DNA from: Escherichia phage E212
Reading direction: 5' to 3' (one strand)
Length of the DNA: 38,252 nucleotides
Sequence record: MZ043897.1
Shown: piece after piece, positions 2,237 to 6,434 of the stretch
Numbering within the stretch: position 1 is the stretch's first letter
How the letters are laid out: every line of letters begins with the position of its first letter
Program-made: the position numbers and the translations under genes
The notes under the pieces: model-generated
Databases searched by the model: none
What the model was told of the DNA's origin: nothing
Seen by the model: the letters and a program-made list of their open reading frames with translations, nothing else

Positions 2237-2323
2237 TCAATAGTCGTAGTCATACGGATAGTCCTGGTATTGTTCCATCACATCCTGAGGATGCTCTTCG
2301 AACTCTTCAAATTCTTCTTCCAT
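2237..2323 (-). CDS. Highly acidic 28-aa peptide
   Basis: ORF MEEEFEEFEEHPQDVMEQYQDYPYDYDY with a strong RBS (GAGGTGA, 4-nt spacer), directly downstream of the N-like gene; below the ORF-track cutoff. Confidence 0.3.
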   Translation of the reverse strand: MEEEFEEFEEHPQDVMEQYQDYPYDYDY

Positions 2324-2381
2324 ATCTCACCTCAAATAAGTGGTTTGCTGCCTAATTTCATTTTCTGGCGACCAACACAAG

Positions 2382-2654
2382 TCATCTTGCTGTCAGCTGT
2401 TTGGATTTCCTGTAGCCTGCCGCGTAAATGGCTACATTTGGAAGACAAGTTGAGCCTTCATATTTTCTGGTCAACGTTGTCAGTGTTATTACTTCTGCTC
2501 TCATTACTGGTTTGCGTTTGCATTGTAAGACCACTCGTGAAGGGGTTGGCCTGTGTAGCTTGTCAGAGCTGATCGCCTCCTGACTTTGCAGGTTTGCACG
2601 ACGAGCTCTACGGCGAGAAGCTGCGGTGCCTTTAAATTCTGTTTTTCTGGACAT
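2382..2654 (-). CDS. N-like transcription antiterminator (P22 gene 24-like)
   Basis: 90-aa ORF from the internal Met of track ORF 2382..2726; N-terminal arginine-rich motif (GTAASRRRARRA); C-terminal YAAGYRKSKQLTAR resembles P22 gp24; RBS GGGAGG 5 nt upstream. Confidence 0.7.
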   Translation of the reverse strand: MSRKTEFKGTAASRRRARRANLQSQEAISSDKLHRPTPSRVVLQCKRKPVMRAEVITLTTLTRKYEGSTCLPNVAIYAAGYRKSKQLTAR

Positions 2655-2679
2655 AGATTCCTCCCGAATAAACTTTGGC

Positions 2680-2727
2680 GATGCAATCTCGAAGCTCCTC
2701 CTGAGACGGTTGCTTCGGCATTGCATC
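2680..2727 (-). promoter_or_regulatory. Large imperfect inverted repeat in the N leader (candidate RNase III-type processing hairpin)
   Basis: GATGCAATCTCGAAGC ... GCTTCGGCATTGCATC, about 15-bp arms around a 16-nt loop, between the nutL-like site and the N RBS. Confidence 0.4.
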
Positions 2728-2752
2728 CCACAGCTTATATGGTTGGGTGATC

Positions 2753-2799
2753 TGGCTTTTCAGCCACGTAGTCGAGTGTTCGACGTTGTTTAAAGAGCC
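2753..2799 (-). promoter_or_regulatory. nutL candidate (boxA-like plus two hairpins, the second with a GAAAA-type loop)
   Basis: Transcript reads GGCUCUUUA-AACAAC-GUCGAACACUCGAC-UACG-UGGCUGAAAAGCCA; the same architecture recurs at the nutR candidate. Confidence 0.45.
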
Positions 2800-2844
2800 T
2801 GCCAGTCTGCTCCGTTTGGCTTACAGCGTCCTGCTGACGGTTAA

Positions 2845-2873
2845 ATAGTACGATATGTACTTTATTGGGTCAA
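2845..2873 (-). promoter_or_regulatory. pL candidate promoter
   Basis: Minus-strand TTGACC, 17-bp spacer, TACTAT, about 40 nt upstream of the boxA-like element; overlapped by a palindromic operator candidate. Confidence 0.4.
2847..2861. promoter_or_regulatory. oL operator candidate (AGTAC-N5-GTACT)
   Basis: AGTACGATATGTACT inverted repeat overlapping the pL -10 and spacer; related half-sites occur in the cI-cro intergenic region. Confidence 0.4.
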
Positions 2874-3060
2874 TACAATTTGTTCTAAAATGGGGTGATT
2901 TTTTATAACGCTTTGTATTTAATAGTGTTGTTTTTTAGCGTGGGTGTATCGCCTCGGCGATGTAAGGAGAGATCAGAATTGCGTGGTTTAGTGAGTTGTA
3001 TCTATTTATTTTTCAATAAATACATTTGGTTATGTGTCTTTAGGTGGGGGCGTGAGGCAA

Positions 3061-3086
3061 AGAAAACCCGGCTCGGTGGCCGGGTT
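3061..3086 (-). terminator. Intrinsic terminator candidate just downstream of the NYN-domain gene
   Basis: AACCCGGC/GCCGGGTT 8-bp stem with 6-nt loop; on the minus strand it is followed by UUUUCUUU. Confidence 0.45.
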
Positions 3087-3093
3087 GATGGGA

Positions 3094-3951
3094 TTATCGT
3101 TTATTTCTTTGATGTTTCTTTGCAGACTCAGCTTGAGTGTTTCCATACCTGCGTTTACCGCTATTGTTTTTTCCTCTAGGCTTGCCTTTTTTTCGATCTT
3201 CCCACCAGTCAGGTGCCGGGTCTGGCTCAACATGTAAAGCATCGGCAAGTCCTGATATCAAGCTGTATGACTGAACTCCATCAATGTGCTCTGACAGTGA
3301 TGGGGTAACATTCTGTCTTAGTGGATCAAGAATAAAATCAATACCTTTAATTCTGGCGTGTTTGGCGGCAGGCACAAAGTCTGAGTCCCCAGCAACAAGG
3401 ACAATTACATCAACAAGTTTTTCATAAGCTAAAGTCGTGATATCCATCCCTAGCTTGATATCAACTTGTTTTTGTTTGATGTCATAGTAAAAATCATCAT
3501 TTGTCAGTTCATCCCATTTTTTCGTTCCTTTCATCAGAGCATCAAGGGAGAATGTAGTTAGTTGCCATCGCTTATTATCAACAAGATTCCCTAATCTTAA
3601 GGCTGTTTTTCGAGTTTTTCTTAACTCTTCATGCAGCTCCGTTCTCAGAATATATGATTTTTCGAGTTTGAAATTCTTGCGACCAGGCGTCTTATTGCCA
3701 GGCTCAGGAAGTGGAAGGCGTGTTTGAATGTCGAGTGGTGGACAGTCATAGAAGTAAATTCTATAAAGCTCAAGCGGTTCCCTACGTTCTTGTGATTGAC
3801 GTTTTCCATTAAGATGGGAAAGAACCATTGACCATATTACTTTCATTATGCATTGCGCAGTCAGTTCATGCTCGGCGAAGTGTTTACGATGCGTAGCATG
3901 AACACGCTGCATGAAAAAACCCGCATCAATTAAAATTGCTGCTTTCTTCAT
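3094..3951 (-). CDS. NYN/LabA-like (PIN-like) domain protein with basic C-terminal tail; putative nuclease in the rexAB position
   Basis: 285-aa ORF; N-terminal AAILIDAGFF and downstream IVLVAGDSDFVPAAK motifs are typical of NYN/LabA-like domains; Lys/Arg-rich C-terminal 40 aa; immediately downstream of cI on the same strand. Confidence 0.6.
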   Translation of the reverse strand: MKKAAILIDAGFFMQRVHATHRKHFAEHELTAQCIMKVIWSMVLSHLNGKRQSQERREPLELYRIYFYDCPPLDIQTRLPLPEPGNKTPGRKNFKLEKSYILRTELHEELRKTRKTALRLGNLVDNKRWQLTTFSLDALMKGTKKWDELTNDDFYYDIKQKQVDIKLGMDITTLAYEKLVDVIVLVAGDSDFVPAAKHARIKGIDFILDPLRQNVTPSLSEHIDGVQSYSLISGLADALHVEPDPAPDWWEDRKKGKPRGKNNSGKRRYGNTQAESAKKHQRNKR

Positions 3952-3960
3952 AAGAGTCCC

Positions 3961-4022
3961 AAAAAAATAGCCCAGAGCCGTTATGCAGATATTAACAATT
4001 GTCTGCGAACGGGGCTGGGCTT
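3961..4022 (-). terminator. Long structured hairpin with U-tract between cI and the NYN gene (terminator or attenuator candidate)
   Basis: Minus-strand arms AGCCCAGCCCCGUU / AACGGCUCUGGGCU (12 pairs with a 2-nt internal loop) enclosing an inner hairpin GCAGA...UCUGC, followed by AUUUUUUU; sits 60 nt after the cI stop, and its U-tract ends 10 nt before the NYN start codon. Confidence 0.5.
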
Positions 4023-4078
4023 GGTTTAATTAATCTATGCCAAGTTGACTGTGCCGTCAACATAAAACTTACTTCCTA

Positions 4079-4738
4079 TCACCCAAACGTCTCTTCAGGC
4101 CACTGACTAGCGATAACTTTCCCCACAACGGAACAACTCTCATTGCATGGGATCATTGGGTATTGTGGGTTTAGTGGCTGTAGAAACACCTGACCGCTAT
4201 CCCTGATCAGTTTCTTGAAGGTAAACTCATCACCACCAAGTCTGGCTATACAGAAATCGCCTGGCTCAACAGCCTGCTCAGGGTCAACCAGAATTAACAT
4301 CCCGTCAGGAAAGCTGGGCTTGGATCCTGTTGGTGCGGTCATGGAATTACCTTCAACCTCAAGCCAGAATGCAGAGCCACTGGCTTTTTTGGTTGTGCTT
4401 ACCAATCTCTCCGCATCGCCTTTGGTAAAGGTTCTGAGTTCTGGAGAGAACATCCCAGCCTGAACATGAGAAAATACAGGGTACTCATATTGTTTTTTAA
4501 CTGGGGCCGATGAGTATTCGCCAACAGGTGAAAATGTCCCGTCGTGGTTGAATGATATGTTATCAATACCAAGGTATTTAAACACCACACCAATATCACT
4601 AAGAGATGGATGACGAGATCCGCGCAACCAGTGTCCAATCCCACCCTGCGTCATACCTAGCTCTTCGGCTAACTTCTCTTGAGTTATGCCGAGCTCTTTC
4701 ATTCTGGATCTAGCCAGTTCATACCATTTCATTTTCAT
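4079..4738 (-). CDS. cI: CI repressor, hybrid: novel N-terminal HTH domain fused to a lambda-cI-type C-terminal S24 (LexA-like) domain
   Basis: C-terminal about 135 aa ([13 protein letters not shown]...[12 protein letters not shown]) near-identical to lambda cI; N-terminal about 85 aa ([37 protein letters not shown]...) unrelated to lambda cI; start taken at the internal Met with RBS AAGGA. Confidence 0.9.
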
Positions 4739-4773
4739 GTCCTTATTATTACGCTCTGTACTGGAACCATCCA

Positions 4774-4820
4774 TGCACAATGTGTATTTTTGCTTGTATT
4801 TGGAAAGTACATATTGTATT
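4774..4820. promoter_or_regulatory. oR operator candidates in the cI-cro divergent region
   Basis: TGCACAATGTGTATT (4774-4788) and AGTACATATTGTATT (4806-4820) resemble the oL palindrome AGTACGATATGTACT; exact pR/pRM hexamers not resolved. Confidence 0.35.
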
Positions 4821-4848
4821 TTTTATTCGAGGTTACTATGGAGGGCAT

Positions 4849-5064
4849 ATGAGCAACCTACGAAAATATCGAGAGTCACTGAATATCTCTCAAACAACAC
4901 TTGCTAAGGCAGTTGGATGCACACAGGGAGCTATCGGACATTGGGAATCTGGTCGTCGCTTCCCAGACCTTAAAACATGCCGTGCTCTTGTTGCGTGCCT
5001 AAATAAGTTAGGCGCAAAAGTAAGTCTTGATGACGTGTTCCCGCCGGAACACAAAGCCGCTTAA
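4849..5064 (+). CDS. cro: Cro-like HTH repressor
   Basis: 71-aa ORF divergent from cI; HTH segment ISQTTLAKAVGCTQGAIGHWESG shares its type with the cI N-terminus; RBS GGAGGG. Confidence 0.8.
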   Translation: MSNLRKYRESLNISQTTLAKAVGCTQGAIGHWESGRRFPDLKTCRALVACLNKLGAKVSLDDVFPPEHKAA

Positions 5065-5074
5065 TAAGCGGAGC

Positions 5075-5120
5075 CGCTCTTTGTAACAACGGACATTCGT
5101 CCTACGTCGCTGAAAAGCGA
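5075..5120 (+). promoter_or_regulatory. nutR candidate (boxA-like CGCTCTTTG plus two hairpins, the second with a GAAAA-type loop)
   Basis: CGCUCUUUG-UAACAAC-GGACAUUCGUCC-UACG-UCGCUGAAAAGCGA; parallels the nutL candidate element for element. Confidence 0.45.
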
Positions 5121-5205
5121 GTCCCAAGATATCTGACCAACTAAGGCCATATGCGTTTCCACGCATACCTTTCAACTAACTATTCACTATTGGAAATCTT
5201 AAGAA

Positions 5206-5502
5206 ATGGAACGAACAAGTTACAGCAAACTATCACAGCGTGACGTTGATCGCGCAGAAACAGATTTACTCATCAACCTATCAACGCTTACCCAGCGCGG
5301 TCTGGCAAAGATGATTGGCTGTCATGAATCGAAGATAAGCAGAACGGACTGGAGATTTATTGCTTCGGTCTTGTGTGCTTTCGGAATGGCATCAGACATC
5401 AGTCCGATTAGCAGGGCTTTTAAGTATGCGCTTGATGAAATCACAAAGAAAAAATCCCCGGCCGCCACCGAGGATTTTAAGCAAATTGATATGCAATTCT
5501 GA
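5206..5502 (+). CDS. cII: CII-like transcriptional activator
   Basis: 98-aa ORF; C-terminus KKKSPAATEDFKQIDMQF resembles lambda CII KKRPAATERSEQIQMEF; HTH in the middle. Confidence 0.8.
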   Translation: MERTSYSKLSQRDVDRAETDLLINLSTLTQRGLAKMIGCHESKISRTDWRFIASVLCAFGMASDISPISRAFKYALDEITKKKSPAATEDFKQIDMQF

Positions 5503-5534
5503 GGGAATTACTGGATCAATCTACAGGGGTCATT

Positions 5535-6434
5535 ATGACAAATACAGCAAAAATACTCAACTTCTGCAGAGGTAACTTTGCCGAACAGGAGCGTAATGTG
5601 GCAGATCTCGATGATGGTTACGCCAGACTATCAAATATGCTGCTTGAGGCTTATTCAGGCGCAGATCTGACCAAGCGACAGTTTAAAGTGCTGCTTGCCA
5701 TTCTGCGTAAAACCTATGGGTGGAATAAACCAATGGACAGAATCACCGATTCTCAACTTAGCGAGATTACAAAGTTACCTGTCAAACGGTGCAATGAAGC
5801 CAAGTTAGAGCTCGTCAGAATGAATATTATCAAGCAGCAAGGCGGCATGTTTGGACCAAATAAAAACATCTCAGAATGGTGTATCCCTCAAAACGAGGGA
5901 AAATCCCCTAAAACGAGGGATAAAACATCCCTCAAATTGGGGGATTGCTATCCCTCAAAACAGGGGAACACAAAAGACACTAATACAAAAGAAAAAAGAA
6001 AAGATTATTCGTCAGAGAATTCTGGCGAATCCTCTGACCAGCCAGAAAACGATCTTTCTGTGGTTAAACCGGATGCTGCAATTCAGAGCGGCAGCAAGTG
6101 GGGAACAGCAGAAGACCTGACCGCCGCAGAGTGGATGTTTGACATGGTGAAGACCATCGCGCCATCAGCCAGAAAACCGAATTTTGCTGGGTGGGCTAAC
6201 GATATCCGCCTGATGCGTGAACGTGACGGACGTAACCACCGCGATATGTGTGTGCTTTTCCGCTGGGCCTGCCAGGACAACTTCTGGTCCGGTAACGTGC
6301 TGAGTCCGGCCAAACTCCGCGACAAGTGGACCCAGCTCGAAATCAACCGTAACAAGCAACAGGCAGGCGTGACAGCCAGCAAACCAAAACTCGACCTGAC
6401 AAACACTGACTGGATTTACGGGGTGGATTTATGA
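5535..6434 (+). CDS. O: Replication initiation protein O (lambda-type)
   Basis: 299-aa ORF essentially identical to lambda O (MTNTAKILNF...DWIYGVDL); contains the ori iterons. Confidence 0.95.
   Translation: MTNTAKILNFCRGNFAEQERNVADLDDGYARLSNMLLEAYSGADLTKRQFKVLLAILRKTYGWNKPMDRITDSQLSEITKLPVKRCNEAKLELVRMNIIKQQGGMFGPNKNISEWCIPQNEGKSPKTRDKTSLKLGDCYPSKQGNTKDTNTKEKRKDYSSENSGESSDQPENDLSVVKPDAAIQSGSKWGTAEDLTAAEWMFDMVKTIAPSARKPNFAGWANDIRLMRERDGRNHRDMCVLFRWACQDNFWSGNVLSPAKLRDKWTQLEINRNKQQAGVTASKPKLDLTNTDWIYGVDL
5883..6010. repeat. ori-lambda-type origin: four iterons plus AT-rich tract inside O
   Basis: Four copies of TCCCTCAAAACGAGGGA-like inverted-repeat iterons (5883-5962) followed by an A-rich stretch. 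Confidence 0.85.

What the first reader, a model, noticed from the sequence alone, without database searches (positions are those of the whole stretch)
5056..5120. nutR candidate mirrors nutL element for element
After cro come a palindrome across the stop codon (CCGCTTAATAAGCGG), boxA-like CGCTCTTTG, spacer TAACAAC, hairpin GGACAUUCGUCC, UACG, and hairpin UCGCUGAAAAGCGA. The nutL side has the same order with UGGCUGAAAAGCCA. The shared CUGAAAAGC hairpin is the likely boxB, and the additional hairpin between boxA and boxB is unusual.
Basis: seen in the sequence. Interest (0 to 1): 0.4.

Follow-up and report, generated by a model that had tools for sequence, protein, structure and literature searches.

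The report
Known nutR antitermination site, Stx-phage type
The stretch after cro is a genuine N-utilisation (nutR) RNA site of the H-19B/VT2-Sakai family of lambdoid phages, and its extra hairpin between boxA and boxB is a conserved, already described hallmark of that family, not a new feature.

Summary
nutR reads boxA CGCTCTTTG (5075-5083), TAACAAC, hairpin GGAC-ATTC-GTCC (5091-5102), TACG, then hairpin TCGCT-GAAA-AGCGA (5107-5120). nutL on the minus strand (2798-2753) has the same order downstream of pL and upstream of an N gene (Pfam N_peptide).

The nutR sequence is identical to the stretch annotated "putative N-utilization rightward" in phage VT2-Sakai. It differs from the experimentally used H-19B nutR mainly in boxA and in one boxB loop base.

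Across 221 related loci the plan ACAAY-hairpin-UACG-boxB recurs. In 39 distinct sequences, 100% of the scored base pairs form and 6 of 9 pairs show compensatory changes. The boxB loop tracks the N arginine-rich motif with no mixing: GAAA with ...RRRxRRAxLQ, GACAA with ...RRRERLKAKALA. This identifies the second hairpin as boxB.

The first hairpin keeps its stem but not its loop, which fits a passive spacer-shortening "reducer". The palindrome over the cro stop codon belongs to one cro allele, not to nut.

Verdict: real, correctly interpreted, already known. The only mild curiosities are a true GNRA tetraloop boxB and a predicted competing boxA:boxB fold.

The parts
5075..5083 (+). nutR boxA (CGCUCUUUG). 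With the following UAACAAC it resembles the rrn boxA-spacer UGCUCUUUAACAAU.
   Evidence: The lambda and rrn boxA sequences are taken from PMC2724277.
5084..5090 (+). Single-stranded 5' flank of the spacer (UAACAAC). The ACAAY core is nearly invariant across the family.
   Evidence: A14, A16 and A17 invariant, C15 nearly so.
5091..5102 (+). nutR spacer hairpin GGAC-AUUC-GUCC, the H-19B-type 'reducer'. It is identical to the hairpin in H-19B nutR.
   Evidence: helix 1: 3 of 4 pairs with compensatory changes, 100% of cells paired.
5103..5106 (+). Invariant UACG linker between the two hairpins.
   Evidence: T31, A32, C33 and G34 invariant in 34 distinct sites.
5107..5120 (+). nutR boxB: 5-bp stem UCGCU/AGCGA closing a GAAA tetraloop on a U-A pair.
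   Evidence: helix 2: 3 of 5 pairs compensatory; loop type tracks the N ARM.
5121..5205 (+). tR1 region between nutR and cII. It differs at 2 positions from the H-19B nutR/tR1 Rho-dependent terminator and includes the hairpin AUGCGU-UUCC-ACGCAU.
   Evidence: VT2-Sakai annotation 'putative rho dependent terminator'; PMC1950744.
2785..2798 (-). nutL boxA plus ACAAC flank (GCUCUUUAAACAAC).
2771..2784 (-). nutL spacer hairpin GUCGA-ACAC-UCGAC. Its sequence differs from the nutR hairpin but the fold is the same.
2767..2770 (-). nutL UACG linker.
2753..2766 (-). nutL boxB UGGCU-GAAA-AGCCA.
2845..2873 (-). pL-like promoter TTGACC-17-TACTAT, which would transcribe nutL and N.
   Evidence: The equivalent stretch in VT2-Sakai is annotated 'putative major leftward promoter'.
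2382..2654 (-). N antiterminator gene (90 aa) with arginine-rich motif GTAASRRRARRANLQ.
   Evidence: PF25694 N_peptide, E = 2e-32; phrog_271; 42% identity to H-19B N.
4849..5064 (+). cro gene. nutR lies 10 nt past its stop codon.
5057..5071 (+). Palindrome over the cro stop codon. It is a feature of this cro allele, not of the nut module.
   Evidence: the same nut module follows other cro ends that lack it; variants within this allele show no compensatory change.

Best explanation
Positions 5075-5120 (+) and 2798-2753 (-) encode the nutR and nutL RNA sites of an H-19B/VT2-Sakai-type N antitermination system.

Inferred mechanism, by homology:
- Transcripts from pR (through cro) and from pL carry boxA, a short single-stranded ACAAC flank, a small hairpin, an invariant UACG, and boxB.
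- NusA joins through N and the single-stranded spacer flanks. NusB/S10 can bind the consensus-like boxA.
- The RNA-tethered complex makes RNA polymerase resistant to the Rho-dependent tR1 just downstream (5121-5205) and to terminators beyond N on the left.
- The extra hairpin acts structurally. By pairing 12-14 nt it shortens the effective boxA-boxB spacer and juxtaposes the conserved ACAAY and UACG flanks (the 'reducer' idea).

Shown here: location, fold, covariation, co-variation of the N motif with the boxB loop, and identity to annotated and experimentally used sites.

Inferred: binding partners and read-through.
For: Context:
- The order N, nutL, pL, cI, cro, nutR, cII, O, P is established by Pfam and PHROG hits and a pL-like promoter.
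- The nutR sequence is identical to the stretch annotated 'putative N-utilization rightward' in VT2-Sakai, and nutL matches 'putative N-utilization leftward'.

Link to an experimental system:
- nutR-tR1 aligns with H-19B nutR/tR1. The differences are in boxA, one boxB loop base and two tR1 positions.
- H-19B nutR/tR1 is an experimentally used N-dependent, Rho-dependent system. It has 'two hairpins'; N plus NusA protect the spacer and boxB, and Rho footprints on the spacer (PMC3526286; PMC1950744).

Comparative evidence from 221 loci:
- 55 distinct nut variants all read ACAAY-hairpin-UACG-boxB.
- On 39 distinct sequences, 100% of cells pair and 6 of 9 pairs have double changes. The covariation score is 0.479 against 0.108 in shuffles (0 of 500 reach it), and slid controls collapse.
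- G.U wobbles occur in both helices, which points to RNA-level pairing.
- The boxB loop type co-varies with the N motif in about 200 loci without exception, and is the same at nutL and nutR of one phage.
- Spacer-hairpin loops differ between nutL and nutR (AUUC against ACAC) and vary freely.
Against: - No binding or read-through data exist for this exact N/boxB pair. The VT2-Sakai annotation says 'putative'.
- The hairpin scan required perfect hairpins, and the alignment was fitted to the structure by a model whose seeds included three trimmed nutL sequences. Pairing percentages therefore lean towards the structure.
- The 'reducer' function comes from my memory of the abstract of Neely & Friedman 2000 (Mol Microbiol 38:1074). 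The paper could not be opened here.
- For isolated 50-nt RNAs of this class, the predicted minimum-energy fold is a competitor in which boxA pairs with the 3' half of boxB, not the two-hairpin form.
- One related contig (L076) pairs this N with a lambda-type nutR.
Confidence: 0.88

Rival explanations
1. The first hairpin is itself a sequence-specific protein-binding site (a second boxB-like element, or a dedicated NusA or host-factor site), not a passive structural spacer.
For: It is always present and always sits exactly between ACAAY and UACG. In H-19B the spacer region is protected by N plus NusA and by Rho (PMC3526286).
Against: Its loop and stem sequences differ between nutL and nutR of the same phage and vary widely across loci (AUUC, ACAC, CUC, ACUC, GAAUAU, AGUGAU, and others), while only pairing is kept. 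One protein could not read all of these by sequence. From memory, Neely & Friedman 2000 report that deleting the dyad has little effect.
Confidence: 0.08
2. The nut RNA of this short-N class is a two-state switch. boxA pairs with the 3' half of boxB, with the spacer hairpin at the apex, so boxB and boxA are mutually masked until N (or NusB/S10) captures one of them. This would couple the two binding events.
For: The competitor is the predicted minimum-energy fold for both nutL (-14.9 against -12.2 kcal/mol) and nutR (-11.9 against -11.1). The first boxA base (C in nutR, G in nutL) changes together with the opposing boxB 3'-arm base (G, C).
Against: The energy gaps are small, and co-transcriptional folding favours local hairpins. 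The competitor is absent in the g341c class and in H-19B nutR. Other variants break the first pair without compensation. Because the boxA core GCUCUUU is complementary to AAAAGC, which is the invariant boxB loop plus 3' arm, the pairing may be an automatic by-product. Only one covarying event supports it.
Confidence: 0.07
3. The hairpins are not antitermination signals. They serve tR1/Rho loading, cro mRNA 3'-end stability, or act as DNA-level palindromes for a DNA-binding protein.
For: nutR overlaps the rut region of tR1 in H-19B, and Rho footprints on the spacer (PMC3526286). The stop-codon palindrome looks like a weak terminator on the minus strand.
Against: The same module occurs downstream of pL, where there is no cro and no tR1. 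Its orientation always follows transcription. G.U wobble pairs would be mismatches in DNA. The loop type tracks the N arginine-rich motif.
Confidence: 0.03

Closest known systems
H-19B nutR and nutL (Neely & Friedman 2000; used by the Sen laboratory, PMC3526286, PMC4499122, PMC1950744)
   Same: The architecture is the same: (boxA)-ACAAY-hairpin-UACG-boxB. The nutR spacer hairpin GGACAUUCGUCC, the UACG linker and the boxB stem UCGCU/AGCGA are identical, and tR1 is nearly identical. The N proteins belong to the same Pfam family, PF25694.
   Different: The boxB loop is GAAA here and GACAA in H-19B. The N motif is ...ASRRRARRANLQ here and ...SRSRRRERLKAKALA in H-19B. N is 90 aa here and 127 aa in H-19B; the window protein lacks a central block. 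Here both nut sites carry a consensus-like boxA, whereas H-19B nutL has none and its nutR boxA is degenerate.
VT2-Sakai / Stx-phage 'putative N-utilization rightward/leftward' features (GenBank AP000422)
   Same: nutR is identical base for base. nutL is identical except for the spacer-hairpin loop (CUC there, ACAC here). The N type is the same.
   Different: There is essentially no difference in nut. The genes between N and cI differ: here a NYN-domain ORF.
Phage lambda nutR/nutL
   Same: Same position after cro and after pL. Same order boxA-spacer-boxB. 5-bp boxB stem closed by U-A with a purine-rich G-A-A-A loop. Rho-dependent tR1 downstream (PMC2724277; PMC12027372).
   Different: Lambda has an unstructured 8-9 nt spacer and a GNRNA pentaloop with one extruded base. 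Here the spacer is 23-24 nt and contains a hairpin, and the loop is a true 4-nt GAAA. Lambda N belongs to a different Pfam family (PF11438).
P22 boxB and phi21 boxB (solved N-peptide complexes)
   Same: They are ARM-peptide/hairpin recognition modules whose loops mimic a GNRA fold. The P22 loop GACAA equals that of the H-19B class (PMC12550061).
   Different: Those loops are penta- or hexaloops with looped-out bases. As far as I know (my knowledge; not checked here), no spacer hairpin has been described for them.
E. coli rrn antiterminator boxA-spacer (UGCUCUUUAACAAUUUA)
   Same: The window's GCUCUUUAAACAAC (nutL) and GCUCUUUGUAACAAC (nutR) resemble the rrn boxA plus its ACAAU spacer, which binds NusA-SKK (PMC2724277).
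   Different: rrn needs no N protein, and its boxB lies upstream of boxA.

Membership tests
Lambdoid N-utilisation (nut) site | Lies in the early pL and pR transcripts, downstream of the promoter (after cro on the right) and upstream of the first terminators | tested here: met
   The pL-like promoter at 2873-2845(-) precedes nutL. nutR starts 10 nt after the cro stop and precedes tR1 and cII. The equivalent features are annotated in VT2-Sakai.
Lambdoid N-utilisation (nut) site | boxA close to CGCUCUU(U)A | tested here: met
   nutR has CGCUCUUUG and nutL has GGCUCUUUA. The reference sequences come from PMC2724277.
Lambdoid N-utilisation (nut) site | boxB: short stem-loop with a purine-rich GNRA-like loop, the same loop at nutL and nutR | tested here: met
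   Both sites have a 5-bp stem with a GAAA loop. The stem shows compensatory changes across 39 distinct sequences.
Lambdoid N-utilisation (nut) site | [quoted passage not shown] | tested here: met
   The ORF at 2382-2654(-) matches PF25694 at E = 2e-32 and carries the motif SRRRARR. The ARM class co-varies with the boxB loop.
Lambdoid N-utilisation (nut) site | N binds boxB RNA and confers terminator read-through | not testable with these tools
   This needs a binding assay or a reporter assay. Data exist only for the H-19B relative (PMC3526286).
H-19B-type nut ('reducer' spacer hairpin) | Dyad symmetry forming a stem-loop inside the boxA-boxB spacer | tested here: met
   GGAC-AUUC-GUCC in nutR and GUCGA-ACAC-UCGAC in nutL. 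The nutR hairpin is identical to that of H-19B. Three of 4 pairs are compensatory.
H-19B-type nut ('reducer' spacer hairpin) | Conserved single-stranded flanks (ACAAY 5', UACG 3') on either side of the hairpin | tested here: met
   These columns are invariant or nearly invariant in 34 distinct sites and in all 55 variants.
H-19B-type nut ('reducer' spacer hairpin) | Pairing, not sequence, matters. One-arm mutations inactivate, compensatory changes restore, and deletion is tolerated. | not testable with these tools
   The natural variation is consistent with this: stems covary and loops vary freely. The genetic test is recalled from the abstract of Neely & Friedman 2000, which is not held here.
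H-19B-type nut ('reducer' spacer hairpin) | Independence from boxA, NusB and S10 | not testable with these tools
   Unlike H-19B, both nut sites here keep a consensus-like boxA, so this property may not carry over.
Rfam RNA families | Match to a curated covariance model | tested here: not met
   No nut or boxB family matched 2300-5600 even at E <= 10. The five weak matches listed lie outside both nut sites, and none reached its family's gathering score.

The most novel reading that the evidence does not exclude
In the short-N (VT2-Sakai-type) class, boxB is a genuine GNRA tetraloop with no extruded base, recognised by a distinct arginine-rich motif (RRRxRRAxLQ). In addition, the nut RNA may toggle between the two-hairpin form and a fold in which boxA is paired to the 3' half of boxB. 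In that case N binding would unmask boxA for NusB/S10, making an N-gated assembly switch. The evidence here does not exclude this. The competitor is the predicted minimum-energy fold at both nut sites, and one boxA/boxB base pair covaries between nutL and nutR.
Probability: 0.1. Interest if true: 0.45.

Novelty: already known. Interest (0 to 1): 0.18.

Why it matters
It matters little for discovery. The site is identical to one annotated in a public Stx-phage record, and the extra hairpin is the documented hallmark of H-19B-type nut sites.

It is useful for annotation. It fixes the early regulatory map of this phage (pL-nutL-N and pR-cro-nutR-tR1-cII), which in Stx phages controls the cascade leading to late-gene and toxin expression.

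The by-products are modestly useful to specialists in N/boxB recognition:
- a strict pairing of boxB loop type (GAAA or GACAA) with N arginine-rich-motif type over about 200 loci;
- the finding that only the short-N class keeps boxA at both nut sites.

Tried and rejected
- Rfam scan of 2300-5600 at a permissive threshold: nothing relevant.
- PDB sequence search with N: no hit.
- Neely & Friedman 2000, Plunkett 1999 and Gottesman & Weisberg 2004 could not be opened. Several literature searches for a text description of the 'reducer', or for 933W-type nut experiments, returned nothing useful.
- A genome-contig scan with an N alignment gave only 5 loci.
- A plain MAFFT alignment of nut variants lost the structural register. 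I built a covariance model instead, from equal-length seeds, three of them nutL sites trimmed by one outer base pair.
- Stop-codon palindrome as part of nut: rejected. The same nut module follows at least three other cro 3' ends that lack it. Variants within this cro allele show a wobble or a mismatch but no compensatory change. nutL has no counterpart.
- First hairpin as boxB: rejected. Its loop differs between nutL and nutR and does not track the N motif.
- Missing nutR in some loci as evidence of mismatch: rejected for nearly all, because those contigs are truncated. Only L076 is a true mismatch.

Full report
**What is in the sequence**

The window is a lambdoid phage early region. A 601-base stretch around cro is 100% identical to Escherichia phage EC.P3 and 97-98% identical to many Stx-converting phages, including 1717, VT2-Sakai and Stx2 II.

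ORF and family searches give the following order:

| Feature | Coordinates | Evidence |
|---|---|---|
| N | 2382-2654 (-) | PF25694 N_peptide, E = 2e-32 |
| NYN-domain ORF | 3094-3951 (-) | PF01936 |
| cI | 4079-4738 (-) | HTH plus Peptidase_S24 |
| cro | 4849-5064 (+) | HTH |
| cII | 5206-5502 (+) | Phage_CII |
| O and P | from 5535 (+) | Phage_rep_O, Phage_lambda_P |

A pL-like promoter (TTGACC-17-TACTAT) lies at 2873-2845 on the minus strand.

**Check of the observation**

- The palindrome CCGCTTAATAAGCGG is at 5057-5071 and straddles the cro stop codon at 5062-5064.
- nutR reads CGCTCTTTG (5075-5083), TAACAAC (5084-5090), GGAC-ATTC-GTCC (5091-5102), TACG (5103-5106) and TCGCT-GAAA-AGCGA (5107-5120).
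- On the minus strand, downstream of pL and about 100 nt upstream of N, nutL reads GCTCTTTAA-ACAAC (2798-2785), GTCGA-ACAC-TCGAC (2784-2771), TACG (2770-2767) and TGGCT-GAAA-AGCCA (2766-2753).

These matches are not chance. The 18-nt TACG-plus-boxB pattern occurs twice against 0.01 expected. Each two-hairpin module folds as drawn, with z = -3.4 and -4.5 and 0 of 200 shuffles as stable. The stop-codon palindrome has no counterpart at nutL.

**Is it known?**

The GenBank record of VT2-Sakai annotates 'putative N-utilization rightward' and 'leftward', together with pL, pR, operators and a 'putative rho dependent terminator'.
- The annotated nutR sequence is identical to the window's.
- nutL differs only in the loop of the first hairpin, CUC against ACAC.

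Phage H-19B (AF034975) has CGCTATTTT-CACAAT-GGACATTCGTCC-TACG-TCGCTGACAAAGCGA after cro. Upstream of N it has ACAAC-GATTC-GAATAT-GAATC-TACG-GCGCTGACAAAGCGC. The plan is therefore the same, the nutR spacer hairpin is the same, and tR1 is nearly the same.

H-19B nutR/tR1 is a standard experimental system.
- PMC3526286 states that the site has 'two hairpins'.
- In that paper N plus NusA/NusG protect the spacer and boxB but not boxA. Rho alone footprints on the spacer, and ARM mutations (12-RSRRRER-18) abolish antitermination.
- PMC1950744 describes H-19B nutR/TR1 as a Rho-dependent terminator that behaves like lambda's.

From my own memory of its abstract, Neely & Friedman (Mol Microbiol 2000, 38:1074) reported the following. 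The paper is cited in PMC3526286 but is not held here.
- H-19B nut spacers carry dyad symmetries absent from other nut sites.
- Breaking one arm inactivates the site, compensatory changes restore it, and deletion is tolerated. They named the stem-loop a 'reducer'.
- H-19B N needs NusA but not NusB, S10 or boxA.

**Comparative evidence gathered here**

I fetched 221 loci that encode N relatives.

A scan anchored on TACG and requiring two flanking hairpins found 55 distinct nut variants. All read (boxA or not)-ACAAY-hairpin(4-6 bp)-UACG-boxB (5 bp; loop GAAA or GACAA).
- Spacer stems include GGAC/GUCC, GGGC/GCCC, GGCC/GGCC, GUCGA/UCGAC, GGUGA/UCACC and GAUUC(R)/(U)GAAUC.
- The spacer loops are unrelated to each other.
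- boxB stems include UCGCU/AGCGA, UGGCU/AGCCA, CGGCU/AGCCG, AGGCU/AGCCU, GCGCU/AGCGC, UAGCU/AGCUA and UGGCC/GGCCA.

That scan required perfect hairpins, so I also built a covariance model. Three of its 14 seeds were nutL sites trimmed by one outer base pair to keep the register. I searched 39 sources with it.
- The window has exactly two hits: nutR at 60.4 bits and nutL at 44.1 bits.
- No source has more than one hit per transcription direction.

Pair counts on the resulting alignment of 39 distinct sequences:
- 100% of 324 cells form standard pairs, against 77% in shuffles.
- 6 of 9 pairs show changes on both sides, three in each helix.
- The covariation score is 0.479 against 0.108 in shuffles (0 of 500 reach it).
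- Sliding the 3' partner by 1-3 columns drops the paired cells to 16-54% and the covariation score to 0.05 or less.
- The alignment is fitted to the structure, which inflates the pairing percentage, but the compensatory changes are real sequence differences.
- G.U wobbles in both helices argue for RNA-level rather than DNA-level pairing.

**Which hairpin is boxB?**

The second hairpin is boxB, for three reasons.
- Its loop is the same at nutL and nutR of a phage, whereas the first hairpin's loop is not.
- Its core CU-GAAA-AG resembles lambda boxB (GCCCUGAAAAAGGGC; PMC2724277) minus one A, and it keeps the closing U-A pair that lambda N needs (PMC12027372).
- In about 200 loci the loop type follows the N arginine-rich motif without exception. 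Motifs of the type ...(A/S)(S/G)RRR(A/E)RRA(N/A)LQ go with GAAA at both sites. Motifs of the type ...SRSRRRERLKAKALA (H-19B type) go with GACAA at both sites.

**Role of the first hairpin**

Only its pairing and its exact position between ACAAY and UACG are conserved. This is what a passive structural element would show, and it agrees with the 'reducer' proposal.

With the hairpin closed, the single-stranded spacer is UAACAAC plus UACG, 11 nt in all. This is close to lambda's 8-9 nt spacer, which binds NusA (PMC2724277).

The conserved ACAAY also continues the resemblance of the window's boxA to the rrn boxA-spacer UGCUCUUUAACAAU.

**Mechanism proposed**

The steps below are inferred by homology unless marked otherwise.
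- The nascent pR and pL transcripts fold into the two hairpins.
- N binds the boxB GAAA loop and the closing U-A pair.
- NusA binds N and the spacer flanks. NusB/S10 may bind boxA, which here is consensus-like at both sites. That is unlike H-19B and the g341c class, whose nutL has no boxA.
- The RNA-tethered complex carries polymerase through tR1 (5121-5205) into cII, O and P.
- On the left it carries polymerase through terminator-like sites at 2164-2149, 2019-2002 and 1981-1962 on the minus strand.
- Occupancy of the spacer also competes with Rho loading, as shown for H-19B in PMC3526286.

**The stop-codon palindrome**

The same nut module, starting at CCGCTCTTTG, follows at least three other cro 3' ends that lack any palindrome (...GCATAAGTAACC......GCCGCCTAAGCAGTA..., and others). 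Within the palindrome-bearing allele the variants CTGCTT and CTGCGT show a wobble or a mismatch but no compensation.

The palindrome is therefore a property of this cro allele and not a nut element. Its weak terminator-like appearance on the minus strand is probably incidental.

**Things that do not fit perfectly**

- For isolated RNAs of about 50 nt of the window's class, the predicted minimum-energy fold pairs boxA (GGCU.CUUU or CGCU.CUUU) with the loop and 3' arm of boxB, leaving the spacer hairpin at the apex. The energies are -14.9 against -12.2 kcal/mol for nutL and -11.9 against -11.1 for nutR.
- The first boxA base and the opposing boxB base change together between nutR and nutL.
- However, the competitor is absent in other classes, and some variants break it. 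It also follows almost automatically from boxA GCUCUUU being complementary to the invariant AAAAGC. I treat it as a low-probability switch hypothesis.
- One contig (L076) combines this N and nutL with lambda cro, nutR and cII. This is a natural N/nutR mismatch, or a sign of cross-recognition of GAAAA.

**Verdict**

The finding is accurate and correctly interpreted, but it describes an already annotated site and an already characterised kind of site. Interest is low.

The residual novelty is small: a true GNRA tetraloop boxB paired with its own motif class, boxA retained at both sites only in the short-N class, and a possible competing fold. All of it is untested.

Noticed in passing
window 3094-3951 (-), terminator 3086-3065 (-): A 285-aa NYN-domain ORF (PF01936, E = 7e-9; phrog_5783, function unknown) occupies the 'moron' slot between pL/N and cI, where VT2-Sakai carries other genes. 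It is followed by a strong intrinsic terminator. It may be an accessory or defence gene expressed from the prophage.
   Followed up: partly
window 5451-5560 (-): A promoter-like site (5560-5532) and a 12-bp-stem terminator (5478-5451) lie antisense to the 3' end of cII. This is the layout of lambda's oop antisense RNA.
   Followed up: no
window about 2676-2730 (-): A long, nearly perfect hairpin (GAUGCAAUGCCGAAGC...GCUUCGAGAUUGCAUC) lies in the N leader between nutL and the N Shine-Dalgarno sequence. It recalls the RNase III-processed hairpin of the lambda N leader. The 201-nt leader folds at z = -3.7.
   Followed up: no
window 2753-2799 (-) and 5074-5120 (+): A predicted competing fold pairs boxA with the loop and 3' arm of boxB, with the spacer hairpin at the apex. 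It is the minimum-energy structure for both nut sites of this N class. One pair covaries between nutL and nutR. It is not conserved in other classes.
   Followed up: partly
L076 (IMGVR_UViG_2531839234_000006), N at 3877-4146; lambda nutR on the opposite strand: This contig carries the window-type N and nutL (GAAA boxB) but lambda-type cro, nutR (GCCCUGAAAAAGGGC) and cII. It is either a natural N/nutR mismatch or evidence that this N tolerates the lambda pentaloop.
   Followed up: partly
L115, L118, L119, L121, L122, L124, about 100-150 nt upstream of N: This sub-class has the N motif ...TSRARRRERLKAKALA. Its nutL keeps ACAAC-hairpin-UACG, but the second hairpin reads GCUCCGUCAACGAGC (4-bp stem, non-GNRA-looking loop). 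Its nutR boxB is UCGCU-GACAA-GGCGA with a U.G closing pair.
   Followed up: no
window 2382-2654 (-) compared with L003 2241-2624 (-): The window's N is 90 aa and lacks a central block of about 37 aa that is present in H-19B N (127 aa). It keeps the ARM, the EAISSxxLHRPTxSR block and the C-terminal CLPNVAxYAAGYRKSKQLTAR. Only this short-N class has a consensus-like boxA at both nut sites.
   Followed up: partly
L086 (JAJXBQ010000280.1): A 3.5-kb contig binned as a Segatella copri MAG encodes an N protein 100% identical to the window's. It is probably coliphage DNA mis-binned into a Bacteroidota genome.
   Followed up: no
window 5057-5071: Read on the minus strand, the cro stop-codon palindrome scores as a weak terminator-like site (CCGCTTATTAAGCGG followed by CTTTGTGTTC). 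In the plus-strand fold its flank ACAAAG pairs with the CUUUGU of boxA. It is specific to this cro allele.
   Followed up: partly
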